From a virus, in UHGV virus genome UHGV-0121367: a stretch of DNA of 19,303 nucleotides; one strand, written 5' to 3'. The translations under genes and the position numbers were made by a program. This document shows, in pieces, positions 6,076 through 19,303 of this stretch (the stretch's first letter is position 1; every line of letters begins with the position of its first letter). The notes under the pieces were generated by a model that worked only from the letters and a program-made list of their open reading frames with translations, did not search any database and was not told the DNA's origin.

Positions 6076-8569
6076 TCTGGTCGTTAACTTTGACGTTAAC
6101 TCGACGAAATTTAACGAGCAGCTTAACTACGTCAAAAAAGAATTAAAGCAGACTGGCAGCGCGGCGAACGACGAAGCGCTACGGATCCAGCAGTCCTTTA
6201 GCCGCCAGGAGAACGCCGCGCGCAAGGCGGGTATTTCAATAGGCCAGTATAACGCAGCAATGCGTATGCTTCCGGCGCAGTTTACCGATATAGCTACGCA
6301 GCTAGCGGGCGGGCAGAACCCATGGCTGATTCTGCTTCAGCAGGGCGGTCAGGTTAAGGACTCCTTTGGCGGGATAATACCAACATTCAGGGCCTTACTG
6401 GGTACGATCTCACCGTTGATGGTCGGCATCGGTGCGCTGTCCGCCGCAACGGGTGCGCTGTTCTATGCCTGGTACCAGGGCTCTTCCACTCTGTCTGACT
6501 TCAACAAAACGCTGGTACTGTCGGGGAACACAGCCGGACTGACCGCTGACCGCATGCTGGCACTGGCGCGTAACGGACAGGCAGCGGGGCTGACCTTCAA
6601 CCAGACCAGTGAAGCGCTGACCGAACTTATCAACGCGGGTGTGCGTGCTGGCTCGCGCTTTGATGACATGAGCCAGGCGGTGGCGCGGTTTACCGATGCC
6701 TCCGGCGTGCCGGTGGAAAAGGTCGCAGCAGCCTATGGCAAGCTCGCAACTGACCCGACATCTGGCCTGATCGCGATGGCCCAGCAGTTCCATAACGTTA
6801 CCGCTGAACAGATTGCCCATGTGGCGCAGCTGCAGCGTGCCGGTGATGAGGCTGGCGCACTGCAGGCGGCTAACGAGGCTGCTACAGCCGGATTCAACGA
6901 TCAGACCAAAGCCATCCGCGACAATATGGGGACGATTGAATCTTCAGCGGACTCCCTGAAGCGCGCCTTCAAGTCGATGTGGGATGCAGCCCTCGATATT
7001 GGCCGACCTGACACCGCGCAGGAGATGGTGGCAAAAGCCGAAGCCGCGTTCAAAAAAGCCGATGAAATCTGGAACCTGCGTAAAGGTGACCGATATGTCA
7101 ATGATGAGGCCCGCACCCGATTCTGGAATGACCGCGAAACGGCCAGGCTTGCGCTGGATATGGCGCAGCAGCAGGCGGGAATTGCCAGGGCGAACGAAGA
7201 GAATGCATCGCGCGAAGCGGCTGCGGAATCGGATCGCCAGAAGTATGCTGCGCAGGCACAGGCAAACTATGCCAAAATGCAGACGGCACTGGAGAAATAC
7301 ACGGCCAGGCAGAGCGAGCTCAACAAGGCGCTGAAAGAGGGGCGGATCCTCCAGGCTGACTACAACATCAACCTGGCTGCCGCGAAAAAAGAGTACGAAG
7401 ACACCCTTAAAAAGCCGAAGAAGACCCCGGCAATCAGAACCCCCGCAGGTGCCCGTGCCACCGATACGGCCAGTGCCCAGACGCTGGAGCTACAGACACA
7501 GCTGCGCACCCTGCAGGAGCATAAGAGCATCAATGACACCATCAGCCAGCAGCGTCAGGAGCTGTGGCGTCAGCAGTCCCGCTTTACGGTTCTGGAAGAG
7601 GCCGCGAAGACCCGAACGCTTTCTGCTGAGGAAAAATCCCTGCTGGCCAGTAAAAGTGAGGTGCTTTCCCGTGCGGAGCTGAATGCGAAGCTTGGCGATA
7701 AGATAGTGGCGCAGGAGCGGCTTAACCGCCTGCAGGATACGTCCCAAAAATACGTCACGCAGATCGGCGAGAAAACCCGAGCCCTTGCGGAAAGTGCTGG
7801 TATGAGCAGTCGTGCAGCACAACGTCGCAATGAAGAGGCCCAGCTTCTTCAGGGCTGGAAAAATGGTGGTGGTTCGGAGAACGATGCTGGTTATCAGAAT
7901 GAGCTGAAGGCGCTGAAGGCGTATTACGCCGAGCAGGATAAGCTTCGGGACGACTGGCAGTCCGGGGCAAAATCCGCTTGGGCAGATTATGTTGATTCTG
8001 CTTCTGATGCTTATGGCCAGATGAAGTCGTTTGCCACCAGTACGTTTGATGGAATCGGGCAAAATATGGCTGACATGCTGACACGCGGAAAGGCTGACTG
8101 GGCTGACTTCACCCGCTCCACGCTCTCCATGCTGACACAGATCCTGCTGAAACAGGCGATGGTAGGCTTAGTGGATTCAGCATCAACCGCGCTGGGATTT
8201 GCAGGTGGCGGTTATACCGGTTCAGGCGGGAAATATGAGCCAGCAGGTGTCGTTCACCGTGGTGAATTTGTTTTCACCAAAGAGGCTACCAGCCGGATCG
8301 GCGTCGGCAACCTTTACCGGATGATGAAAGGGTACGCCACAGGAGGGCTTGTCGGGGGCAGTGGCACAGGTCCCGCTGCAGCACCTTTCGGGGTGAGCGT
8401 GTACGCGCCTGTGACCGTCGAGAATGCCTCCGGTGGCGCACAGCAGCAAAATGACGGAGACAGGCTGGGTAAGGCGTATCAGCAGGTGATTAACAAATCT
8501 GTCAACGATGGTATCGCCAGGGCAATCCAGCCCGGTGGGCTTATCTGGAATGCGACCAATCGCAGGTAA
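6053..8569 (+). CDS. H: Tail tape measure protein H
   Basis: 838-aa ORF (lambda gpH is in the same size class) with an AGGAGG RBS, placed after G-T. It has long Ala/Gln/Arg/Lys-rich predicted helical regions and a Gly-rich C-terminal part. Confidence 0.93.
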   Translation: MAQTAVGDLVVNFDVNSTKFNEQLNYVKKELKQTGSAANDEALRIQQSFSRQENAARKAGISIGQYNAAMRMLPAQFTDIATQLAGGQNPWLILLQQGGQVKDSFGGIIPTFRALLGTISPLMVGIGALSAATGALFYAWYQGSSTLSDFNKTLVLSGNTAGLTADRMLALARNGQAAGLTFNQTSEALTELINAGVRAGSRFDDMSQAVARFTDASGVPVEKVAAAYGKLATDPTSGLIAMAQQFHNVTAEQIAHVAQLQRAGDEAGALQAANEAATAGFNDQTKAIRDNMGTIESSADSLKRAFKSMWDAALDIGRPDTAQEMVAKAEAAFKKADEIWNLRKGDRYVNDEARTRFWNDRETARLALDMAQQQAGIARANEENASREAAAESDRQKYAAQAQANYAKMQTALEKYTARQSELNKALKEGRILQADYNINLAAAKKEYEDTLKKPKKTPAIRTPAGARATDTASAQTLELQTQLRTLQEHKSINDTISQQRQELWRQQSRFTVLEEAAKTRTLSAEEKSLLASKSEVLSRAELNAKLGDKIVAQERLNRLQDTSQKYVTQIGEKTRALAESAGMSSRAAQRRNEEAQLLQGWKNGGGSENDAGYQNELKALKAYYAEQDKLRDDWQSGAKSAWADYVDSASDAYGQMKSFATSTFDGIGQNMADMLTRGKADWADFTRSTLSMLTQILLKQAMVGLVDSASTALGFAGGGYTGSGGKYEPAGVVHRGEFVFTKEATSRIGVGNLYRMMKGYATGGLVGGSGTGPAAAPFGVSVYAPVTVENASGGAQQQNDGDRLGKAYQQVINKSVNDGIARAIQPGGLIWNATNRR

Positions 8570-10386: not shown

Positions 10387-10473
10387 TTCTATAGTGGTTA
10401 AGTTGTTAATTACTCACTCCATAACTTCATGTTAGTATTCCTCTGATATTTTCAATGAAAGGGAAGCTTAATT

Positions 10474-10869
10474 GTGAAAAAAATATTGTTCTCTGGTCTT
10501 GTGGTGCTTGCCACCGCTGGATGTGCTGATAATAGGCCAATGCCGGTATTAGATACTAAGCCTGTCACATGTTCATCAGAGGCTGAATGTAGTTATCTTT
10601 GGTCGAAGGTTCCTCAGCATTTGGAGTTTGCAACAAAAATGAGAGTAGAATCAGCTAACGATACATTTATAACAACATTCCCACCTATTGATACAAGGCA
10701 ACTTGCAGGACGGGCATCTAAGGTTAAACAGTCCGGCGATACGGCAATAAATGCTGAATTCCAATGCCATCGACATTATGGGCAGAAGGATTGTGAAAGG
10801 GCGGTAATTAATGCTACAAATTTCTTTAATCAAGCAATGAGCATTGAAAAGAAACATTTTAATAAATAA
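10474..10869 (+). CDS. Moron-encoded probable outer-membrane lipoprotein of unknown function (131 aa, GTG start)
   Basis: N-terminus MKKILFSGLVVLATAGC has a signal peptide and lipobox-like TAGC. Residue +2 is Ala, so outer-membrane sorting is expected by the E. coli rule. Four further Cys. The gene is clearly AT-richer than its flanks (by eye) and is followed by a strong intrinsic terminator. It is inserted between K and I, which are adjacent in lambda. Confidence 0.7.
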   Translation: MKKILFSGLVVLATAGCADNRPMPVLDTKPVTCSSEAECSYLWSKVPQHLEFATKMRVESANDTFITTFPPIDTRQLAGRASKVKQSGDTAINAEFQCHRHYGQKDCERAVINATNFFNQAMSIEKKHFNK

Positions 10870-10893
10870 ACACCTAAATAAATCAACCAAATT

Positions 10894-10917
10894 AAACCGC
10901 TTCGGCGGTTTTTTTTT
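10894..10917 (+). terminator. Rho-independent terminator after the lipoprotein moron
   Basis: Stem aaaccgc (10894-10900), UUCG-type loop ttcg, stem gcggttt (10905-10911), then a T-run to 10917. Confidence 0.8.
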
Positions 10918-10932
10918 ACGTGGGGGGATTAT

Positions 10933-11520
10933 ATGCAAGAGGTCATGAGTCGAATTGAATTAGGCAGTGTTCTTGGAAAAACGTTTGGCAAAGTTCACTA
11001 CCGTCTGATATCCCGCGTAAGCGAAGCAGGCGTTGCACTCGCAAAAACCATTCCTGGATTTGAGCAGTTTATGATTTCCAGCCAACGCCGTGGGCTCACA
11101 TACTCCGTGTTTAAGGGTAAAAAAAACATCGGTGTGGATGACCTTGGCTTCCCGATTACCGGCGAGGTTATTCGCATTGTTCCGGTAATCATCGGGAGTA
11201 AAAAAGCCGGTTTGATTCAAACTATCCTGGGCGCAGTATTAGTGATTGCATCGATCTGGATGCCAGGTCTGAGTATAGCTGCCAGCAATATGATGTTTGC
11301 TGCTGGTGCGTCCATAACGCTGGGGGGGGTAGTTCAGATGTTATCCCCTCAGGCTACAGGGCTGGCCAGCAAACAGAGCTCAGATAACCGCGCCTCATAC
11401 GCGTTCGGCGGAGTCACAAACACCGCTGCGCAGGGCTACCCGGTACCACTTCTTTATGGTCGCCGGCGAATCGGCGGTGCGATTATTTCTGGCGGGATAT
11501 ATGTCGAAGATCAGCAGTAA
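10933..11520 (+). CDS. I: Tail tip assembly protein I
   Basis: 195-aa ORF. The central and C-terminal parts (hydrophobic Gly/Ala-rich segment ...LGGVVQMLSPQA..., then ...AQGYPVPLLYGRRRIGG...) match lambda gpI. The N-terminus is shorter and divergent. Confidence 0.85.
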   Translation: MQEVMSRIELGSVLGKTFGKVHYRLISRVSEAGVALAKTIPGFEQFMISSQRRGLTYSVFKGKKNIGVDDLGFPITGEVIRIVPVIIGSKKAGLIQTILGAVLVIASIWMPGLSIAASNMMFAAGASITLGGVVQMLSPQATGLASKQSSDNRASYAFGGVTNTAAQGYPVPLLYGRRRIGGAIISGGIYVEDQQ

Positions 11521-11540
11521 GCTAAGTTAAGGAGATGTGT

Positions 11541-11690
11541 ATGTCTTTTGAGTCACGAGTAGAAAAAACTGAAAATGAAACATCTGAAGTTAATGAAACG
11601 GTCCCGCATGAGACCGTAGAGTACGATGCTTCAATGACATTAGGCGTCAATAAGCTTCATATTTTTGACGATGTCTTGAATTTGTGGTGA
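11541..11690 (+). CDS. Small acidic hypothetical protein (49 aa) in the AT-rich I-J island
   Basis: ATG at 11541 with AAGGAG at 11528-11533 (7-nt spacer). Translation MSFESRVEKTENETSEVNETVPHETVEYDASMTLGVNKLHIFDDVLNLW is about 30 percent Asp/Glu. Too short for the ORF track. Its 3' end overlaps the convergent minus-strand ORF by 51 nt. Confidence 0.35.
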   Translation: MSFESRVEKTENETSEVNETVPHETVEYDASMTLGVNKLHIFDDVLNLW

Positions 11691-11855
11691 GTTTGTCTTT
11701 GATAGGATTTCAATAACTTGTTGCCTTGTATCTACTGGCAATGCTGCTGTTAATACCATTGTAACTTGTCTTAGAGCCACAATTTCTAAAGCGATTTCTC
11801 TAGGAATATTTTCGTCAAGAGTAAATCTAAAATCCACGAACTTTTCTTCGATCAT
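11640..11855 (-). CDS. Hypothetical 71-aa protein encoded antisense to the late operon in the I-J island
   Basis: ORF track 11640..11855 (-). ATG preceded by GGAG with a 7-nt spacer on the minus strand. AT-rich codon usage unlike the flanking tail genes. No signal peptide and no family I can recognise. Confidence 0.45.
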   Translation of the reverse strand: MIEEKFVDFRFTLDENIPREIALEIVALRQVTMVLTAALPVDTRQQVIEILSKTNSPQIQDIVKNMKLIDA

Positions 11856-11986
11856 CTTATTACTCCATTTTAACCGGGTACTTCAGCCATCCCTCGGTCA
11901 GTTAACGCCAGAGGCCTACCACTGGCGGGCTGAGCTTACACATTAACCAGGGATTCCTGTTACCAACAGCCTGATATTTAAACAGT

Positions 11987-12010
11987 AGCCGCCTTCGGGT
12001 GGCTTTTTTT
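11987..12010 (+). terminator. Rho-independent terminator on + strand immediately upstream of J
   Basis: Stem agccgcc (11987-11993), loop ttcg, stem ggtggct (11998-12004, one G:U pair), then a T-run 12004-12010. The J start codon is at 12022. Confidence 0.7.
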
Positions 12011-12021
12011 ATGGACGCGAT

Positions 12022-15000
12022 ATGGCTACAGAGAAAGTATTAAAGGGGCGCAAAGGCGGCAAATCCAGTTCACGAACTCCTACCGAACAGCCTGATGATC
12101 TGCAATCTGTAGCGAAGGCAAAAATCCTCGTTGCGCTTGGGGAAGGGGAGTTCGCAGGGCAGCTAACCGGCAAAGATATCTACCTGGACGGAACGGCGCT
12201 GGAGAATGCCGACGGTTCCCAAAACTTCAGCGGCGTGACGTGGGAGTTTCGCGCGGGGACGCAGGCTCAAAAATATATTCAGGGTATTCCCGGTACCGAA
12301 AACGAAATCAGCGTGGGAACTGAGGTATCAAGCGCTACAGCCTGGACGCGCACGTTTACCAATACGCAGCTTTCAGCAGTTCGTCTGCGTCTGAAATGGC
12401 CCTCGCTTTTCAAACAGGAAGACGACGGAGATCTGGTGGGTTACTCGGTCAATTATGCGATTGACCTGCAGACGGACGGCGGCACATGGCAGACGGTACT
12501 CAATACCAGCGTGACCGGCAAAACGACGTCTGGTTATGAGCGCAGCCACCGTATCGATTTACCGCAAGCTGGCAGCACCTGGACAATACGTCTGCGTAAG
12601 ATTACCTCTGATGCCAACAGCGCGAAGATCGGCGACACGATGACGCTGCAGAGCTTCACCGAGGTGATTGACGCCAAGTTACGATATCCAAACACAGCGC
12701 TACTCTACATCGAATTCGATTCAAGTCAGTTTAACGGCTCTATCCCGCAGATCTCCTGCGAGCCCCGCGGCCGTGTTATCCGCGTTCCAGATACCTACGA
12801 CCCTGAAACCCGCACTTATAGCGGTACATGGACCGGTGCGTTTAAGTGGGCATGGACGGATAACCCTGCGTGGATTTTTTACGATCTGGTTGTTTCTGAC
12901 CGGTTCGGCCTCGGGCACCGTTTGACCGCTGCGAATATTGATAAATGGACGCTTTATCAGGTTGCCCAGTATTGTGATCAGATGGTACCAGACGGCAAAG
13001 GGGGCAACGGTACCGAACCACGTTATACCTGCAACGTGTACATCCAGGACCGAAACGACGCTTATACAGTCCTGCGTGATTTTGCGGCCATATTCCGTGG
13101 CATGACGTACTGGGGAGGCGATCAGATCGTTGCTCTGGCCGATATGCCCCGAGATGTTGATTACAGCTACACGCGCGCCAACGTTGTTGGCGGTCGCTTC
13201 ACCTATTCAAGCAGCACCACGAAAACCCGCTACACCACAGCGCTGGTTTCATGGTCAGACCCGGGTAACGCTTATGCCGACGCGATGGAGCCGGTATTTG
13301 AGCAGGCGCTGGTAGCGCGATACGGCTTCAATCAGCTGGAAATGACAGCCATCGGCTGCACCAGGCAGTCAGAAGCGAACCGAAAGGGGCGCTGGGGCAT
13401 TCTCACCAACAACAAGGATCGCGTTGTTTCGTTTGATGTCGGGCTGGACGGAAACATTCCGCAGCCTGGCTACATCATCGCCGTGGAAGACGAGCTGCTT
13501 TCCGGAAAGGTTATGGGCGGCCGCATCAGCGCCGTTAACGGTCGCGTTATCAAACTTGACCGCGTAGCTGATGCAGCACCAGGTGATCGCCTTATTCTCA
13601 ACCTGCCTTCCGGAGCGTCGCAGAGCAGGACCATTCAGGCCGTGAACGGGGAATCAGTCACAGTCACCACGGCATACAGTGAGACGCCACAGGCCGAAGC
13701 TGTTTGGGTGGTTGAATCTGACGAGCTTTACGCGCAGCAATATCGCGTTATCAGCGTTACGGATAATAATGACGGAACGTATTCGATTGCTGGCGCTTTG
13801 CACGATCCGGATAAATATGCGCGTATCGATACCGGTGCCATTATCGACCAGCGGCCAATAAGTGTAATTCCGCCCGGTAATCAGTCCCCGCCAGCTAATA
13901 TCGCGATCAGTTCGTTTTCTGTCGTTCAGCAGAATATCAGCGTTGAGACCATGCGCGTCAGCTGGGACCAGGCGAAAAATGCTATCGCGTATGAGGCACA
14001 GTGGCGTCGCAATGACGGGAACTGGGTGAATGTGCCGCGCAGCTCCACCACGTCATTCGATGTTCCGGGGATTTATGCAGGACGCTACCTGGTTCGCGTG
14101 CGTGCCATCAATGCCGCCGAAATTTCATCTGGGTGGGGCTATTCAGAAGAGAAAACGTTGACGGGTAAAGTGGGAAACCCACCGAAGCCGGTTGGCTTCA
14201 TCGCTTCTGAAAACGTGGTATTCGGTATCGAGCTGAACTGGGGATTCCCGGCGAATACCGAAGACACGCTGAAGACGGAAATTCAGTATAGCCTGACCGG
14301 TACCGAGGACGATGCAATGCTGCTGGCCGATGTGCCTTACCCGCAGCGCAAATATCAGCAGATGGGCCTTAAGGCTGGGCAGATTTTCTGGTACCGCGCG
14401 CAACTTGTTGACCGGACCGGTAACGAATCGGGGTATACCGACTGGGTGCGCGGGCAGGCGAGCACCGATGTTTCAGAAATTACGGATGCAATATTCAAAG
14501 AGATTCAGGAAACAGAGGTTTTCAAAAACCTGATCGCCACTGTAGATGAGGATACCAAAAATATTGCCGAACTGACTGATGCGGTCCGGGAAAATGCCGA
14601 CGCGCTGGCAGCTGCAATTATTGACGGGAAACAAACTGCAGAGGATTTGAAATCCAGTACTGAAAATCTGGCAGCAGCGATTCGTGAAAATGCAGATAGT
14701 CTTGCCGCGGCGGTTTCATCTAACAAACAGACCGCTGAAGCTATTATTGCCAATTCTCTCGCGATTACTGATGTCGTATTGCGTCAGACCGCCCAAAACG
14801 GCGCTAATACGGCGCAATTCGAGCAACTACGGGAAGTTGTAGCGACAGAAACTGAAGCTCGCGTGACCGATGTTACCCGTCTCGAAGCTAAGACGAAGGA
14901 TAACGCGGCGGGCATCACTGAGGTTCGACAAGCACTTGCTGATGAAACTCAAGCCCGCGCAACTGCTGTCGATCAGCTTACTGCTGCTACGGACGCGGCG

Positions 15001-16479
15001 GGTAAGGTTGGCGCACAGAACAGCGCGGATATCACATCACTTACCCAAGTTGTTACAGATAGCACCTCTGCGGCCGCTTCACGATTTGATGAGCTTAGCG
15101 CTGCTACTGCCAGCGCTGCGGGCGGCATTCAGAGTAATGCCATCGCTCTGATTAACAACACGTTAGCTCAGGTTAGCCAGCGCAACACCATGACGGTTCA
15201 GTACCTGGACAACAAGGCCGGGATCGAGCGCACACAGGAAGCCATAGCCAACGAGACCGAAGCCCGTGTTGCTGATGTACTGCGCCTTGAAGCTACTACA
15301 GAGCACAACGCAGCTGATATCATTGAAGTGCGTCAAGCTATGTCTGACGAGTCTCAAGCAGTCGCGACGCGTCTTAATGAACTCAATGCTGCTACTAAGA
15401 CTGCCGACTCTAAAGCGGACGCGGCGGGTAAGGTTGGCGCACAAAATGCAGCGAAAATCACAGCGCTTGAGCAGGTTGTGACAGATACAGAATCAGCTAC
15501 AGCGCTGCGACTCGACGAGCTTTCTGCTGCTACTAAAGCTGCCAGCGATAAAGCAGATGAGGCGGAACAAGCCAGTACTCGCAATGCCGCAGAAATCAGC
15601 GAGTTGGATCAAGTGGTCACGGATTTGGACAGCGCCACAGCGTTACGTTTTGACGAAATCTCAGCAGAAATCGCAGATCAGAGCAGTAATGTGGGCGTCA
15701 TTAAAGGAGGCATTCAGAATAACGCGATTGCAGTAATTCAGCAGACGTTAGCGCAGGTGAATCAGTCGCAGCGAATGAGTGTGCAGTACGGCGACAATAA
15801 AGCAGGGATCGAACGTGTCGATAACGTGATGGCTGATGCAAGCCTGGCTGTGGCTGAGTCACTCAAAACGCTGGATTCAAGTGCAGGAGGTGGTACTGCA
15901 AATACGACTGATTTTGCAAAAACTCTTGCGGATTTCACGCAGGCGTCAGCAACGCGGATTAACTCGCTGACAGTGTCAGTTAATGGGCAGACGACAGTAA
16001 TTGAACAGAACGCACGGGCGGTTGCAGATATCAGCGGAAATCTGAATGCGATGTACAGTATTAAAGTCGCTATCGACTCGAACGGACGGCAATACGCTGC
16101 CGGAATGGGTATCGGAGTCGAAAATACGCCAGCAGGTATGCAGTCGCAGGTGCTGTTCCTGGCTAACCGCTTTGCTGTTATGACTCAGGCCGGTGGTGCG
16201 GTCACGCTGCCATTCGTTATTCAGAATGGCCAGGCCATTATCAGGGATACAGTCATTGGCGACGGGACCATAAGCAATGCAAAAATTGGCAATTACATCC
16301 AGTCGAACAATTATGTTGCCGGCTCTGTTGGCTGGAAACTGGATAAGTCCGGGACGTTTGAGAACTACGGTTCGACAGCTGGGGAGGGAGCCATGAAGCA
16401 GACCAACCAGACAATCAGCGTCAAGGATGGCAACAACGTTCTGAGAGTGCAGGTTGGCCGATTAACGGGGGTGTTCTGA
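12022..16479 (+). CDS. J: Tail tip attachment / host specificity protein J (central tail fibre), enlarged relative to lambda J
   Basis: 1485-aa ORF. The N-terminal two thirds are collinear with lambda gpJ motifs (...YPNTALL...QISCEPRGRVIRVPDTYDPETRTYSGTWTG...YCDQMVPDGKGG...). A long Ala-rich repeat region follows, and the C-terminal region is unlike the lambda LamB-binding end. Confidence 0.95.
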   Translation: MATEKVLKGRKGGKSSSRTPTEQPDDLQSVAKAKILVALGEGEFAGQLTGKDIYLDGTALENADGSQNFSGVTWEFRAGTQAQKYIQGIPGTENEISVGTEVSSATAWTRTFTNTQLSAVRLRLKWPSLFKQEDDGDLVGYSVNYAIDLQTDGGTWQTVLNTSVTGKTTSGYERSHRIDLPQAGSTWTIRLRKITSDANSAKIGDTMTLQSFTEVIDAKLRYPNTALLYIEFDSSQFNGSIPQISCEPRGRVIRVPDTYDPETRTYSGTWTGAFKWAWTDNPAWIFYDLVVSDRFGLGHRLTAANIDKWTLYQVAQYCDQMVPDGKGGNGTEPRYTCNVYIQDRNDAYTVLRDFAAIFRGMTYWGGDQIVALADMPRDVDYSYTRANVVGGRFTYSSSTTKTRYTTALVSWSDPGNAYADAMEPVFEQALVARYGFNQLEMTAIGCTRQSEANRKGRWGILTNNKDRVVSFDVGLDGNIPQPGYIIAVEDELLSGKVMGGRISAVNGRVIKLDRVADAAPGDRLILNLPSGASQSRTIQAVNGESVTVTTAYSETPQAEAVWVVESDELYAQQYRVISVTDNNDGTYSIAGALHDPDKYARIDTGAIIDQRPISVIPPGNQSPPANIAISSFSVVQQNISVETMRVSWDQAKNAIAYEAQWRRNDGNWVNVPRSSTTSFDVPGIYAGRYLVRVRAINAAEISSGWGYSEEKTLTGKVGNPPKPVGFIASENVVFGIELNWGFPANTEDTLKTEIQYSLTGTEDDAMLLADVPYPQRKYQQMGLKAGQIFWYRAQLVDRTGNESGYTDWVRGQASTDVSEITDAIFKEIQETEVFKNLIATVDEDTKNIAELTDAVRENADALAAAIIDGKQTAEDLKSSTENLAAAIRENADSLAAAVSSNKQTAEAIIANSLAITDVVLRQTAQNGANTAQFEQLREVVATETEARVTDVTRLEAKTKDNAAGITEVRQALADETQARATAVDQLTAATDAAGKVGAQNSADITSLTQVVTDSTSAAASRFDELSAATASAAGGIQSNAIALINNTLAQVSQRNTMTVQYLDNKAGIERTQEAIANETEARVADVLRLEATTEHNAADIIEVRQAMSDESQAVATRLNELNAATKTADSKADAAGKVGAQNAAKITALEQVVTDTESATALRLDELSAATKAASDKADEAEQASTRNAAEISELDQVVTDLDSATALRFDEISAEIADQSSNVGVIKGGIQNNAIAVIQQTLAQVNQSQRMSVQYGDNKAGIERVDNVMADASLAVAESLKTLDSSAGGGTANTTDFAKTLADFTQASATRINSLTVSVNGQTTVIEQNARAVADISGNLNAMYSIKVAIDSNGRQYAAGMGIGVENTPAGMQSQVLFLANRFAVMTQAGGAVTLPFVIQNGQAIIRDTVIGDGTISNAKIGNYIQSNNYVAGSVGWKLDKSGTFENYGSTAGEGAMKQTNQTISVKDGNNVLRVQVGRLTGVF
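14584..14745 (+). repeat. Short 96-bp (32-aa) direct repeat in J encoding RENAD(A/S)LAAA...KQTAE
   Basis: cgggaaaatgccgacgcgctggcagctgca at about 14587 and cgtgaaaatgcagatagtcttgccgcggcg at about 14683. Confidence 0.6.
14849..15830 (+). repeat. Diverged in-frame tandem repeats inside J (unit about 405-426 bp, two to three copies)
   Basis: Near-identical 23-mer gcggcgggtaaggttggcgcaca at 14995 and 15421 (period 426 bp). Related blocks gaaactgaagctcgcgtgaccgatgtta (14849) and gagaccgaagcccgtgttgctgatgta (15253). A third partial copy around 15560-15830 repeats the ...IQ(S/N)NAIA(L/V)I..TLAQV.Q...M.VQY.DNKAGIER... module. Confidence 0.8.
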
Positions 16480-17568: not shown

Positions 17569-17802
17569 ATGAGAAAACTGATTATCTGCATGGCAGGCGC
17601 TGTCATGCTTACAGGATGCGCTGGCGTAATTGAGAAACAGGAACCAGTTTGCAGCGGCACTGCAATCGTTGGCGGTCAGGAAACTACGGTTCAGATTTAC
17701 GGTGTGCGTAAACAAAACAACCAGACGCAGTACCGGGCTGGATATCCTTTCAGCTGGCGCTGGGTAAGTGCGAATACATTTACCGAAACAACCTGCAAAT
17801 AA
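17569..17802 (+). CDS. Small outer-membrane lipoprotein (77 aa); candidate Cor/Llp-like superinfection exclusion protein
   Basis: N-terminus MRKLIICMAGAVMLTGC has a canonical lipobox LTGC with Ala at +2. Two further Cys (C28, C76). Size and position (downstream of J, before the tail fibre) match Cor-type exclusion lipoproteins of lambdoid phages. The functional call is inference. Confidence 0.6.
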   Translation: MRKLIICMAGAVMLTGCAGVIEKQEPVCSGTAIVGGQETTVQIYGVRKQNNQTQYRAGYPFSWRWVSANTFTETTCK

Positions 17803-17823
17803 CCCACTACGCTTAAACATAAA

Positions 17824-17846
17824 CCTCGCCCCGGCGGGTTTTTTAT
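17824..17846 (+). terminator. Probable intrinsic terminator after the lipoprotein gene
   Basis: GC-rich imperfect hairpin (cctcgcc / ggcggg) followed by ttttttatt at 17839-17847. Confidence 0.5.
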
Positions 17847-17863
17847 TATCTGGAGAAAATAAA

Positions 17864-19000
17864 ATGATCTATACAACCGGCACTATCGCTGTCAGCGGTA
17901 ATACTCTGACCGGCACCGGAACTAATTTTACTGCTGCGGGTTCATTAATTCGGAACGGCTGCACTGTTATTGCACTGACAAATCCGGCACAGGTATTTCA
18001 GATTACTGCAATTAACAGCGCTACGAGTCTCACTGTAACGCCTGCTGCCAGCCCAGCAATTCCAGCCGGTACGAAATATTCAATTCTGCTGAGTGATAGT
18101 CTGAGCGTTGATGGGCTGGCGCAAGATATTGCCGAGACGTTCACTCTGTACCAGCGCAATATGAGCGGATTCGCTGACGTAATGAACGGCACAGGGGACG
18201 TGACAATTACGATTAACGGTGTGGCTGTGACCGTTCCTGGTCAGAAATCGCTAGCGAAGAAAGGGGCAAATAAGGACATTACGAGCCTGACCGGGTTAAC
18301 TACAGCGCTTAGTATCGCTCAGGGCGGCACCGGTGGCAAAACAGCAGCAGAGGCCCGCACATACCTCGGTTTAGGAAGTAGTGCGACAAAGGATGTCGGA
18401 ACTGCGGCAGGGAATGTTATGCAGGTGGGAGCTTTTGGGGTTGGTGCTGCTCTCGAAAATAAGCCCACAGATGCCAGTTCATCCTTCATCAGTGATGCTG
18501 CTGGCAATACTCTGTGGGCTCCTGCGAATGGCTGTGGGTTTCAGAGTTCCTACACCGAGCAGCGAATTGCGCAGCTGTGGATTACTTACGGTGGTGCGAT
18601 GTTCAGCCGTTTTCTAACAACCACTGATGACCCTCAAACACCAAAATCATCAGTGCCGTGGGCGCAGATGCAGTCTGCAGGTACATCGGACATAAATTTC
18701 AAGAAGGTTACTGGAGAACTTAATTTAGAAGTGTCTCTGGCCAACATCGTGGCAATGGATTTTAAGACCTTCTACTACCTTGCTGATGAAGAGAAAACGA
18801 TACGCCGAGGTGTTGTTGCTCAGGAACTGGAAAAGATAGATCCGCAATATGTTCACTCGGCTGAGGAGTCGGGGAAAATGACCCTAGACCTCAATCCTCT
18901 GGTGCTCGATGCGCTGGCGGCAATCAAAGAGCTGGCAATCCGCGTCAGCGCATTAGAGGGCGACGCTAAATCTCCGGCTTCTGGCTCATCCGCTGGTTAA
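17864..19000 (+). CDS. Tail fibre protein with a C-terminal intramolecular chaperone (Peptidase S74-like auto-cleaving) domain
   Basis: ATG at 17864 preceded by GGAG at 17852-17855. The upstream ATG at 17768 would overlap the lipoprotein gene and terminator. The C-terminal approximately 100 aa carry S74-type hallmarks: GTSDINFKK (Ser-Asp...Lys at the predicted cleavage site, Ser about residue 275), RRGVVAQELEKIDPQYV, and a terminal helical ...LDALAAIKELAIRVSALE. Confidence 0.82.
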   Translation: MIYTTGTIAVSGNTLTGTGTNFTAAGSLIRNGCTVIALTNPAQVFQITAINSATSLTVTPAASPAIPAGTKYSILLSDSLSVDGLAQDIAETFTLYQRNMSGFADVMNGTGDVTITINGVAVTVPGQKSLAKKGANKDITSLTGLTTALSIAQGGTGGKTAAEARTYLGLGSSATKDVGTAAGNVMQVGAFGVGAALENKPTDASSSFISDAAGNTLWAPANGCGFQSSYTEQRIAQLWITYGGAMFSRFLTTTDDPQTPKSSVPWAQMQSAGTSDINFKKVTGELNLEVSLANIVAMDFKTFYYLADEEKTIRRGVVAQELEKIDPQYVHSAEESGKMTLDLNPLVLDALAAIKELAIRVSALEGDAKSPASGSSAG

Positions 19001-19303
19001 ACAGTGAATCTGCGGGCATATCCAAGCGAACATCGATCCAGCTGTTCGCCGGTACGTCCATCGGTTCACCTTTGGTTTTGATGATTTCACCTTCATCGCT
19101 CAACATGTATTTGTGCTTAAACAGGCGGATTGTCAGCTCGCCGTTGTCGGTTTGCACTGCCTCAACCACGCCCAGTTCTCCCATGCCGCCTGGGTCCATT
19201 GGCGGCAGTATCTGCCATCCCTCAGAAGCCAGGCCTGCCGAACCGGCGAGCACGTAAACACCGACGTCGAGACGAAAAAGAGTTATTCCCTCCGCCTCAG
19301 AGT
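18966..19303 (-). CDS. Hypothetical protein, minus strand, running off the window edge and overlapping the tail fibre 3' end by 35 nt
   Basis: ORF track 18966..19253 (-) starts at a GTG. The same frame stays open upstream to the window end at 19303, so the true start is probably outside the window. No family recognised. Confidence 0.4.
   Translation of the reverse strand, partial: SEAEGITLFRLDVGVYVLAGSAGLASEGWQILPPMDPGGMGELGVVEAVQTDNGELTIRLFKHKYMLSDEGEIIKTKGEPMDVPANSWIDVRLDMPADSLFNQRMSQKPEI

What the first reader, a model, noticed from the sequence alone, without database searches (positions are those of the whole stretch)
11521..12010. Second AT-rich island between I and J with two convergent, 3'-overlapping small ORFs, one antisense to the late operon
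In lambda, I is followed directly by J. Here there are about 490 bp of AT-rich DNA with a 49-aa very acidic ORF on the + strand (strong AAGGAG RBS) and a 71-aa ORF on the minus strand (GGAG RBS). Their 3' ends overlap by 51 nt, and a + strand terminator sits just before J. Convergent overlapping small genes inside a late operon resemble toxin-antitoxin, antisense-regulated, or anti-defence and defence cargo pairs. A small protein that is about 30 percent Asp/Glu is reminiscent of DNA-mimic inhibitors. Neither product matches a family I can recognise, so this is the best candidate for an undescribed function in the window. It is also possible that only one ORF is real and the other strand acts as RNA.
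Basis: partly seen in the sequence, partly recalled or inferred. Interest (0 to 1): 0.75.

Follow-up and report, generated by a model that had tools for sequence, protein, structure and literature searches.

The report
Two-gene moron cassette between I and J
The island between tail genes I and J is a mobile two-gene insert found in many lambda-like phages: a small gene that reads against the tail operon behind a conserved folded RNA leader, plus a small partner gene that reads with the operon; the layout matches known prophage defence and antidote pairs, but its function has not been tested.

Summary
A 49-aa + ORF (11541-11690) and a 71-aa - ORF (11640-11855) overlap by 51 nt, and a + strand terminator abuts J. 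The + ORF is 22% Asp/Glu, not about 30%.

Both genes are real. The 71-aa gene ("B") shows clear purifying selection. It always lies antisense to a phage late operon, in at least five different slots. A convergent sense-strand partner ("A", pN/pS 0.2-0.4) nearly always accompanies it.

This layout is the moron plus reverse-moron arrangement annotated in HK97 (gp22/gp23), HK022 (gp22/Srb) and ES18 (gp24/gp25). B is a remote member of the HK022 Srb superfamily, whose function is unknown. It is not DUF2594, a known toxin-antitoxin pair, or a conserved acidic DNA mimic.

One result goes beyond the finding. The 155 nt between B and J is a conserved module. It contains an ~80-nt 5' leader RNA with a covarying hairpin and has no Rfam match. 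In more than 120 viral contigs this leader precedes at least 17 unrelated small cargo families.

The best reading is a "noncontiguous operon", as in phi80 Tai/Ati. B would be made in the lysogen. A would be made with the late genes to neutralise it. Expression and function are inferred, not shown.

The parts
11529..11534 (+). Shine-Dalgarno AAGGAG of partner gene A, 6 nt before the ATG at 11541 and only 8 nt after the stop codon of I
   Evidence: Sequence. An SD in front of the partner ORF is conserved in relatives. There is no room for a promoter between I and A.
11541..11690 (+). Partner gene A, 49 aa, in the sense of the late operon. It is a short, acidic member of a variable partner family (35-120 aa). 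It keeps the N-terminal M-x-x-E-x-R-V-E and the C-terminal Y-D-A-S-M-x-L-G-V motifs. The usual stop after GVN is lost, which lengthens the overlap to 51 nt.
   Evidence: alignment A5, invariant Tyr. pN/pS is 0.21-0.38 with third-position excess in relatives. The exact protein was called on 287 contigs.
11598..11617 (-). 8-bp hairpin ACGGUCUC-AUGC-GGGACCGU followed by UUUCAUU. It is the probable intrinsic terminator of B and lies inside the A reading frame.
   Evidence: Fold z-score -3.1. HK97 and ES18 records annotate a terminator at the same relative place. Equivalent GC hairpin plus T-run is visible in Kosakonia.
11640..11855 (-). Cargo gene B, 71 aa, antisense to the late operon. It is a small three-helix protein of the HK022 Srb superfamily.
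   Evidence: pN 0.24 against pS 0.80, codon-position differences 21/11/45. Only 10 clusters in 1.84 billion representatives. AF2 pLDDT 80, helices 19-38, 41-52 and 57-67. hhalign to Srb: 73% and 95.8% against an Srb-like alignment.
11856..11933 (-). Conserved structured 5' leader of B. In order: UCAGCC (11933-11928), covarying hairpin P2 (11927-11906), GAGGGAUGGCUGA (11895-11883) whose GGCUGA is complementary to UCAGCC, an anti-SD-like ACCCGG (11879-11874), and the SD GGAG (11866-11863).
   Evidence: A covariance model built without this window hits 11852-11943 (-) at 42.8 bits, E 6.5e-9, the only hit in the window. All 8 pairs of P2 show compensatory changes. No Rfam match.
11940..11985 (-). 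Conserved upstream block. It holds the inverted repeat CTG-N9-CAG (11985-11971) and a weak but positionally recurrent -35/-10 pair, TTGGTA (11966-11961) and TAATGT (11945-11940). This is the putative B promoter or operator.
   Evidence: Alignments. No sigma-70 match above shuffles, so the promoter is inferred only.
11987..12011 (+). GC hairpin plus T7, a + strand intrinsic terminator (A7 on the other strand). The conserved junction TTTTTTTATGGNCGCNATATG follows and runs into the J start.
   Evidence: Annotated as a terminator in HK97 and ES18. The same junction precedes J or L depending on the slot.
10933..11520 (+). Tail assembly gene I, the left flank of the cassette
12022..16479 (+). Tail tip/host specificity gene J, the right flank of the cassette

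Best explanation
The island is one copy of a widespread, mobile two-gene cassette of lambdoid and HK97-like phages of Enterobacterales, of the moron plus reverse-moron type.

Shown:
- B (71 aa, Srb superfamily) and A (49 aa) are both conserved coding genes.
- B always reads against the late operon and A always reads with it.
- B carries its own terminator inside A.
- B is preceded by a conserved ~80-nt structured leader and a conserved upstream block, bounded by a terminator that abuts the next late gene.
- The same leader and the same partner N-terminus flank many unrelated cargo genes.

Inferred:
- B is transcribed from its own promoter in the repressed prophage. Its translation or stability is set by the leader. 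Alternative pairings of an anti-SD-like CCUC with an upstream GAGG or with the real SD suggest a translational switch.
- A has no room for its own promoter and is translated from the Q-antiterminated late transcript.
- That transcript also runs antisense through B and its leader and lowers B expression.
- A is the cognate antagonist of B, so B acts on superinfecting phage, or on some host process, without harming the phage's own lytic growth. This is the logic shown experimentally for phi80 TaiEcA/AtiEcA.
For: Gene reality:
- B.
- A.

Conserved polarity in at least five slots (I-J, M-L, after the tape measure gene, Q-holin, tail end/terminase).

Same layout annotated as morons in HK97, HK022 and ES18.

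Leader:
- 84-95% identity to HK97 and HK022.
- Covariation and RNAalifold consensus.
- Independent covariance-model hit, E 6.5e-9.
- U-G wobbles fit the B-sense strand only.

Cassette nature:
- More than 120 viral contigs carry the leader 20-mer.
- 17 cargo clusters start 32-40 nt after it.
- 75 of 87 contexts have a convergent partner, and 31 partners start M-T-L-E-Q-R-V/I-E whatever the cargo.
- The island is about 99-100% identical in six phages or prophages, while the whole 701-nt query including I and J flanks is 93.6-99.4% identical.

Other points:
- The I-A gap of 20 nt leaves no room for a promoter.
- Functional precedent: an immune gene antisense in the late operon and constitutive in the lysogen; a small sense gene as counter-defence that binds it; Q expression lowers the immune protein (PMC11364771).
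- Longer partners carry the C-terminal RPGG motif of tape measure proteins, which hints at a tail-related target.
Against: - No expression data exist for this cassette.
- No sigma-70-type promoter scores above shuffled sequence upstream of B in any locus.
- B and A have no detectable similarity to the phi80 antisense 204-aa gene or its small neighbour.
- phi80 lacks the leader and has the small gene at the 5' side of the antisense gene, not the 3' side.
- PADLOC has no hit.
- The fold of B is a generic three-helix bundle with no informative neighbour.
- The window's A lacks the RPGG motif.
- A evolves 3-4 times faster than B and is mosaic, which also fits a non-antidote role.
Confidence: 0.5

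Rival explanations
1. Only B is functional cargo. The A reading frame is a by-product of the cassette's left arm. It carries B's terminator and a conserved 5' segment used as a homologous-recombination flank. Its translation may only keep ribosomes on the late mRNA across the insert.
For: - The partner N-terminus is shared by cassettes with unrelated cargo.
- Partner length varies from 35 to 120 aa, and partners contain pieces resembling tape-measure and J C-termini.
- A diverges 3-4 times faster than B.
- The KKAA..KTA motif coincides with the terminator hairpin.
- NCBI's PGAP pipeline does not call A.
Against: - pN/pS is 0.21-0.38 with third-position excess in the A frame and not in other frames.
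- The SD and an open frame are kept in 75 of 87 contexts.
- A cargo-specific C-terminal motif with an invariant Tyr lies just outside the overlap.
Confidence: 0.22
2. The pair is a toxin-antitoxin or antisense-RNA addiction module. The two convergent transcripts pair over the 3' overlap, and one product is toxic.
For: Convergent genes with 3' overlap. Small size. Carried by a mobile element.
Against: - No hit to toxin or antitoxin families in Pfam, NCBIfam or PADLOC.
- Neither protein is a hydrophobic type I toxin, judged by reading the sequences.
- The overlap is usually only 8-18 nt and varies.
- Polarity relative to the late operon is conserved, which an autonomous toxin-antitoxin pair would not need.
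- The same partner N-terminus serves unrelated cargo.
Confidence: 0.08
3. A is an acidic DNA-mimic inhibitor (anti-restriction or anti-defence) and B is unrelated cargo.
For: The window's A has net charge -8.
Against: - Asp/Glu content is 22%, not 30%.
- Homologous partners range from +7 to -8 net charge, and many are basic.
- At 49 aa with a coiled-coil-like N-terminus, it is unlike Ocr or ArdA (my own knowledge of those families).
Confidence: 0.03
4. B is a small regulator of the phage's own late or tail gene expression or assembly (for example a DNA- or RNA-binding or chaperone-like helical protein), not a lysogenic-conversion or defence factor.
For: - Always embedded in late operons, mostly among tail-tip genes.
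Against: - Antisense orientation and an own terminator and leader point to expression independent of the late operon.
- The cassette is absent from most close relatives, so it is dispensable: only 4 of 5426 complete E. coli genomes carry this island.
- The same platform carries unrelated cargo families.
- It is also found in the Q-holin slot, away from tail genes.
Confidence: 0.1

Closest known systems
HK022 gp22 / gp23 ('Srb protein') morons between I and J (GenBank NC_002166, AF069308)
   Same: - Same I-J slot.
- Same layout: a small sense ORF converging on a ~73-aa antisense gene.
- Same leader, terminator and junction (94 bits with model R1, 84% DNA identity).
- B is a remote homolog of Srb.
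   Different: - B and Srb are only about 25% identical over 52 columns.
- HK022 gp22 is a different partner type (M..Y..LS.DKK.VVFYAP), not the MTLEQRVE type.
- I found no paper describing Srb function.
HK97 gp22 ('moron product') / gp23 ('reverse moron product') between I and J (NC_002167)
   Same: Same slot, convergent 3'-overlapping pair, terminator of the antisense gene inside the sense gene, + terminator before J, leader region 95% identical over 116 nt.
   Different: gp23 (86 aa) and gp22 (120 aa) have no detectable similarity to B and A. The cargo is swapped on the same platform.
phi80 TaiEcA / AtiEcA noncontiguous operon (He et al. 2024, PMC11364771); also Tha/Ith of S. aureus prophages and Tab of P. 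aeruginosa prophages, as cited there
   Same: A gene antisense to the Q-dependent late operon sits next to a small sense-strand gene. There it was shown that the antisense gene is a constitutive prophage defence, and that the small gene is a late-expressed antidote that binds it.
   Different: - No sequence similarity.
- Tai is about 204 aa against 71 aa for B.
- In phi80 the small gene adjoins the 5' end of the antisense gene (divergent overlap), and the leader RNA is absent.
- Nothing has been tested for the window's pair.
ES18 genes 24 / 25 ('possible moron') between M and L (NC_006949)
   Same: Same cassette type and leader (78 bits), with both terminators annotated.
   Different: - Different slot.
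- The cargo gp25 (95 aa) has no Pfam match; I did not compare it directly with B.
- The partner gp24 is DUF1327.
DUF2594 / YecF (PF10769), the label given to this protein in the mEp506 record
   Same: Small helical protein of similar length. A short segment resembles ANEV..LK of Srb, judged by eye.
   Different: No Pfam hit for any of 11 family members. hhalign probability is 0.4%.

Membership tests
Lambdoid moron + reverse-moron cassette (HK97 gp22/23, HK022 gp22/23, ES18 gp24/25 type) | Insert between two late genes with base composition unlike the flanks | tested here: met
   GC 0.375-0.39 against 0.5-0.6. I-J slot as in HK97 and HK022.
Lambdoid moron + reverse-moron cassette (HK97 gp22/23, HK022 gp22/23, ES18 gp24/25 type) | Small sense ORF converging on an antisense gene, with the antisense gene's terminator inside the sense ORF and a sense-strand terminator before the next late gene | tested here: met
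   compare.
Lambdoid moron + reverse-moron cassette (HK97 gp22/23, HK022 gp22/23, ES18 gp24/25 type) | Homologous leader and upstream module in front of the antisense gene | tested here: met
   blastn 84-95% identity. Covariance model R1: 42.8 bits, E 6.5e-9.
Lambdoid moron + reverse-moron cassette (HK97 gp22/23, HK022 gp22/23, ES18 gp24/25 type) | Own promoter giving expression from the repressed prophage | tested here: inconclusive
   No sigma-70 consensus above shuffles. Only a positionally recurrent weak -35/-10 pair.
Srb-like protein superfamily (HK022 gp23) | Profile-level sequence similarity over the helical core | tested here: met
   hhalign 73%, E 3e-5 to Srb alone. 95.8%, E 7.8e-9 to an Srb-like alignment. 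BLAST chain through intermediates.
Srb-like protein superfamily (HK022 gp23) | About 65-75 aa, antisense in a late operon behind the conserved leader | tested here: met
DUF2594 (YecF, PF10769) | Match to the Pfam model or profile similarity to YecF | tested here: not met
   No hit at E<=1 for 11 members. My recalled YecF sequence was confirmed as DUF2594. hhalign probability 0.4%.
Tai/Ati tail-assembly-inhibition defence and counter-defence | Sequence homology to Tai or Ati | tested here: not met
   hhalign 0.07% to the phi80 204-aa antisense gene. No BLASTP alignment of A to its small neighbour. I assigned those two phi80 genes to orf63 and orf64 from position and size.
Tai/Ati tail-assembly-inhibition defence and counter-defence | Noncontiguous operon: immune gene antisense within the Q-dependent late operon, small counter-defence gene in sense next to it | tested here: met
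   The geometry differs: 3' overlap here against 5' overlap in phi80.
Tai/Ati tail-assembly-inhibition defence and counter-defence | Constitutive expression in the lysogen, tailless progeny of attacked phage, antidote binds the immune protein | not testable with these tools
   Needs experiments.
Toxin-antitoxin systems (type I / II) | Recognisable toxin or antitoxin domain, or a small hydrophobic toxin with an antisense RNA | tested here: not met
   Pfam, NCBIfam and PADLOC give nothing. Both proteins are soluble-looking, judged from the sequences.
Acidic DNA-mimic inhibitors (Ocr/ArdA-like) | Strongly acidic composition conserved across homologs | tested here: not met
   22% Asp/Glu in the window. 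Partners range from +7 to -8 net charge.
Any Rfam 15 RNA family | Score at or above the family's gathering threshold | tested here: not met
   0 hits in the window and in 7 related loci. The best sub-threshold hit is isrD at 18 bits over the terminator.

The most novel reading that the evidence does not exclude
The 155 nt between B and J, together with the 5' end of the partner ORF, would be the two conserved arms of an undescribed cassette platform for prophage accessory genes.

- The right arm holds a structured ~80-nt leader RNA: the UCAGCC/GGCUGA helix, a covarying hairpin, and a 16S-3'-end-like GAUUACCUC element next to the SD.
- This leader controls the expression of whatever small cargo is inserted antisense into the late operon.
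- At least 17 cargo families were seen, of which Srb/B is the largest.
- The sense partner's variable C-terminus would supply a cognate antidote.

If so, the platform would be a way to find new phage defence and counter-defence pairs, and the leader would be a new cis-regulatory RNA class.
Probability: 0.4. Interest if true: 0.75.

Novelty: new member of a known kind. Interest (0 to 1): 0.55.

Why it matters
Prophage genes that read against the late operon, each with a small sense-strand neighbour, were recently shown to be defence and counter-defence pairs (Tai/Ati, Tha/Ith, Tab). This island is an untested pair of that layout.

An isolated phage, mEp506, carries an almost identical copy, so the predictions can be tested directly.

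The island also led to a conserved leader RNA and conserved cassette arms shared by many unrelated small cargo genes. These could serve as a sequence handle for finding such pairs systematically. The leader may be a regulatory RNA that has not been described.

Tried and rejected
- **Rfam:** gathering and E-value scans of the window and 7 related loci found nothing useful.
- **Protein family libraries:** Pfam, NCBIfam and PADLOC gave nothing for A or B. PHROGs gave only phrog_6806, of unknown function.
- **DUF2594 label of the mEp506 record:** not reproducible.
- **dN/dS within E. coli copies:** uninformative, because the island is about 99-100% identical in all six.
- **Sigma-70 promoter search upstream of B in 17 loci:** nothing above shuffles.
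- **LexA box:** considered for the inverted repeat and rejected, because the spacing is CTG-N9-CAG rather than N10 (sequence).
- **In-frame N-terminal extension of B from the conserved ATGGCTGAT:** rejected, because frame and stops differ between loci.
- **CsrA sites:** AGGGAUGG plus the SD GGA were noted from memory of the CsrA consensus as a possible lead. Not tested.
- **Second 13-mer match at 19211-19223 (-):** lies inside a coding ORF and is within chance expectation.
- **Literature:** searches for Srb, mEp506 and "reverse moron" found nothing. Juhala et al. 2000 is not held.
- **phi80:** no leader and no homology.

Full report
**1. Observation**

The coordinates hold.
- I stops at 11520.
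- AAGGAG lies at 11529-11534. It is followed after 6 nt by the ATG at 11541, which opens a 49-aa ORF ending at 11690.
- On the minus strand a 71-aa ORF runs from 11855 to 11640, behind GGAG at 11863-11866.
- The 3' ends overlap by 51 nt.
- A GC hairpin (11987-12004) plus T7 sits 10 nt before J's ATG at 12022.
- GC content is 0.375-0.39 in 11500-11899, against 0.5-0.6 in I and J.
- One correction: the + ORF is 22% Asp/Glu (11 of 49, net charge -8), not about 30%.

**2. Both ORFs are genes.** I call the minus-strand gene B and the plus-strand gene A.

- *Close copies carry no information.* The island is about 99-100% identical in phage mEp506 and four E. coli prophages. The whole 701-nt query, including the I and J flanks, is 93.6-99.4% identical. 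This is a moron-like pattern, but it says nothing about selection.
- *B is under purifying selection.* Homologs of B at 63-65% identity occur in Kosakonia and related prophages at the same I-J junction. Window against Kosakonia gives codon-position differences of 21/11/45 and pN 0.24 against pS 0.80. No other frame behaves this way.
- *B's family is small.* A full HMM search of 1.84 billion representatives found 10 clusters of 63-82 aa.
- *A has a conserved partner family.* In nearly every locus a small ORF on the operon-sense strand converges on B and overlaps its end, usually by 8-18 nt. These partners share:
  - an SD;
  - an N-terminal M-T-L-E-Q-R-V/I-E-A-L-E (M-S-F-E-S-R-V-E in the window);
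  - a C-terminal A-A-x-K-x-A-K-Y-E/D-A-S/G-M/F-x-I/L-S/G-I/V block with an invariant Tyr (VEYDASMTLGV in the window; alignment A5).
- *The window's longer overlap is derived.* Its usual stop after GVN is lost.
- *A is also under purifying selection.* Between diverged partner pairs the A frame shows differences of 19/12/30 and 6/6/21 by codon position, with pN/pS 0.38 and 0.21. A diverges 3-4 times faster than B.
- *Acidity is not conserved.* Partner net charge ranges from +7 to -8.

**3. Context**

Across 39 loci, B is always antisense to the late operon and A is always in sense. Five kinds of slot were seen:
- I-J;
- M-L;
- just after the tape measure gene;
- Q-holin, in Arsenophonus;
- a tail-end/terminase junction.

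B has its own terminator-like hairpin at 11598-11617, inside A (z -3.1). The I-A gap of 20 nt leaves no room for a promoter, so A must be read from the late transcript. This last point is an inference.

**4. Comparison with known phages**

- HK97 has gp22 "moron product" and gp23 "reverse moron product" at I-J, with both terminators annotated.
- HK022 has gp22 and gp23 "Srb protein" at I-J.
- ES18 has genes 24 and 25, "possible moron", at M-L.
- HK97 gp22 and gp23 are not homologous to A and B.
- B is a remote relative of HK022 Srb. hhalign gives 73% and E 3e-5 against Srb alone. It gives 95.8% and E 7.8e-9 against an Srb-like alignment, and BLAST intermediates link the two.
- The mEp506 record calls B "DUF2594 containing". 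I could not reproduce this.
- Pfam, NCBIfam and PADLOC give nothing for A or B.
- The AF2 model of B has pLDDT 80, three helices and a disordered N-terminal 18 residues. It has no informative structural neighbour.

**5. The spacer between B and J is the most conserved part**

Read in the B direction, window 12011-11856 contains these elements in order:
- an A7 run plus GC hairpin;
- the inverted repeat CTG-N9-CAG;
- a block CCTGGTTAAnGT;
- UCAGCC;
- an 8-bp hairpin (P2);
- GAGGGAUGGCUGA;
- an anti-SD-like ACCUC;
- the SD and the AUG.

The same order is found in almost all B loci in every slot, and also in HK97, HK022, ES18, HK633, mEp213/mEp043, SPN3UB and others.

Evidence that this is a structured RNA on the B-sense strand:
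- On a 46-sequence alignment, all 8 pairs of P2 show changes on both sides and 93.5% of cells are paired.
- The covariation score is 0.222 against 0.128 in shuffles (0 of 500 reach it). With slid partners it is 0.04-0.08.
- Fourteen U-G wobbles at one pair fit the B-sense strand only.
- UCAGCC and GGCUGA are complementary and 98% paired, but nearly invariant, so they give no covariation signal.
- RNAalifold places these two helices together and adds a small CCU/AGG hairpin over the SD.
- A covariance model built from 33 leaders hits 11852-11943 (-) at 42.8 bits, E 6.5e-9. None of the 33 came from this window, HK97 or mEp506. This is the only hit in the window. The model finds nothing in phi80.
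- Rfam 15 has no match.
- The RefSeq annotation shows no feature under the leader in 53 E. coli genomes.

No sigma-70 promoter scores above shuffles. A weak -35/-10 pair does recur with its -10 ending 80-84 nt before the AUG, which would put the 5' end of the RNA at about UCAGCC. This is an inference.

**6. The leader marks a cassette platform**

- In 87 distinct contexts a start codon follows 32-40 nt later. The encoded proteins fall into 17 BLAST clusters:
  - the Srb/B superfamily, the largest with 24 contexts;
  - DUF1883;
  - a Zn-ribbon protein;
  - several helical families;
  - proteins of 169 and 210 aa.
- 75 of the 87 contexts have a convergent sense partner. 31 of those partners start M-T-L-E-Q-R-V/I-E whatever the cargo, and the partner's C-terminal part changes with the cargo.
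- Longer partners contain the IKNAxRPGGxL motif found at the extreme C-terminus of tape measure proteins. The window's H ends ...AIQPGGLIWNATNRR.
- The conserved arms are therefore the 5' end of the partner ORF on one side, and the leader plus terminator plus the junction TTTTTTTATGGNCGCNATATG on the other. That junction supplies the approach to the next late gene's start. The variable core is the partner's C-terminus plus the cargo.

**7. Mechanism**

The closest functional precedent is phi80 TaiEcA/AtiEcA (He et al. 2024, PMC11364771).
- The immune gene is antisense within the Q-dependent late operon and is expressed constitutively in the lysogen.
- It blocks tail assembly of other phages.
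- A small sense gene is the late-expressed antidote and binds it.
- Q expression lowers the immune protein.
- The authors predict that many such pairs sit in noncontiguous operons.

The window's pair has this logic but differs in several ways:
- there is no sequence similarity;
- B is much smaller;
- the small gene adjoins the 3' end of the antisense gene, not the 5' end;
- the leader is absent from phi80.

My preferred model is this. B is made in the prophage under control of the leader. A is made late and neutralises B. Late read-through damps B. The gene content, polarity, terminators and leader structure are shown. Expression timing, antagonism and the target are inferred.

Rival readings are scored in the rivals section:
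- A as a by-product of the cassette arm;
- a toxin-antitoxin pair;
- a DNA mimic;
- an own-phage regulator.

**8. Verdict**

As an object it is a new member of a kind known since the HK97 and HK022 genomes were annotated. Its proteins remain of unknown function. The added value lies in three results:
- the placement of B in the Srb superfamily;
- the conserved partner family;
- the apparently undescribed leader RNA and cassette platform.

Noticed in passing
window 11856-12021 (-) and loci L046-L165: The B-J spacer is a conserved non-coding module. Its 20-mer GAGGGATGGCTGATTACCTC occurs in more than 120 viral contigs. There it precedes at least 17 unrelated small cargo families at a fixed distance. 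Hairpin P2 covaries. No Rfam family matches.
   Followed up: yes
L133, L138, L060, L064, L069, L095 (leader regions listed): A second leader type keeps the GAGGGATGGCTGATTACCTC element but lacks the UCAGCCCG hairpin. Instead a long-range GTTGGTTAA...TTAACCAAC complement spans about 50 nt, and the upstream region has CCCCAT...ATGGGCGTCCGTGGGG.
   Followed up: no
window 12005-12024 and the same junction in L019, L032 and others: The sequence TTTTTTTATGGNCGCNATATG after the terminator is conserved whichever late gene follows (J in the I-J slot, L in the M-L slot). The cassette therefore seems to bring the approach to the downstream start codon with it.
   Followed up: partly
window 10387-10932 (between K and I): The first AT-rich island has a 131-aa ORF (10474-10869, GTG start) with no Pfam match. 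In close relatives the same K-I slot holds other genes: a YebO-family 74-aa protein in 1008S13 and YZ_2_2, with a same-size 'gp20' ORF at that position in mEp506, and a 171-aa hypothetical in MB06022. It is another variable moron slot, this time with a sense-strand gene only.
   Followed up: partly
E. coli MB06022 NZ_CM129892 2652877-2652947 and 1008S13 NZ_CP147053 3427498-3427570: The two prophages that carry this island have a second copy of the leader about 15-17 kb away, outside the window. One prophage may therefore hold two cassettes of this type.
   Followed up: no
window 8330-8569 (C-terminus of the tape measure protein H) and partner ORFs of L019, L032, L036, L037: Longer partner proteins carry a roughly 27-aa segment (EELAKMMREVASETIKNARRPGGTL) about 44% identical to the extreme C-terminus of tape measure proteins. 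One partner (L034) carries a J-like PFSVAGGQVFIDDAKI segment.
   Followed up: partly
window 18966-19303 (-): An ORF on the minus strand runs in from beyond the right end of the window. It converges on the tail fibre gene (17768-19000, which has a Peptidase_S74 chaperone domain) and overlaps it by 35 nt. A 12-of-13 match to the leader motif at 19211-19223 lies inside this coding sequence and is within chance expectation.
   Followed up: partly
L001 (mEp506, PV340542) 1740-1955: The record labels the B protein "DUF2594 containing protein". Neither the Pfam model nor a profile comparison with YecF supports this.
   Followed up: yes
L166 (ES18) 1947-2207: The sense partner in ES18 (gp24) is a DUF1327 protein (E 3.8e-7). 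DUF1327 may be one branch of the partner proteins of these cassettes.
   Followed up: no
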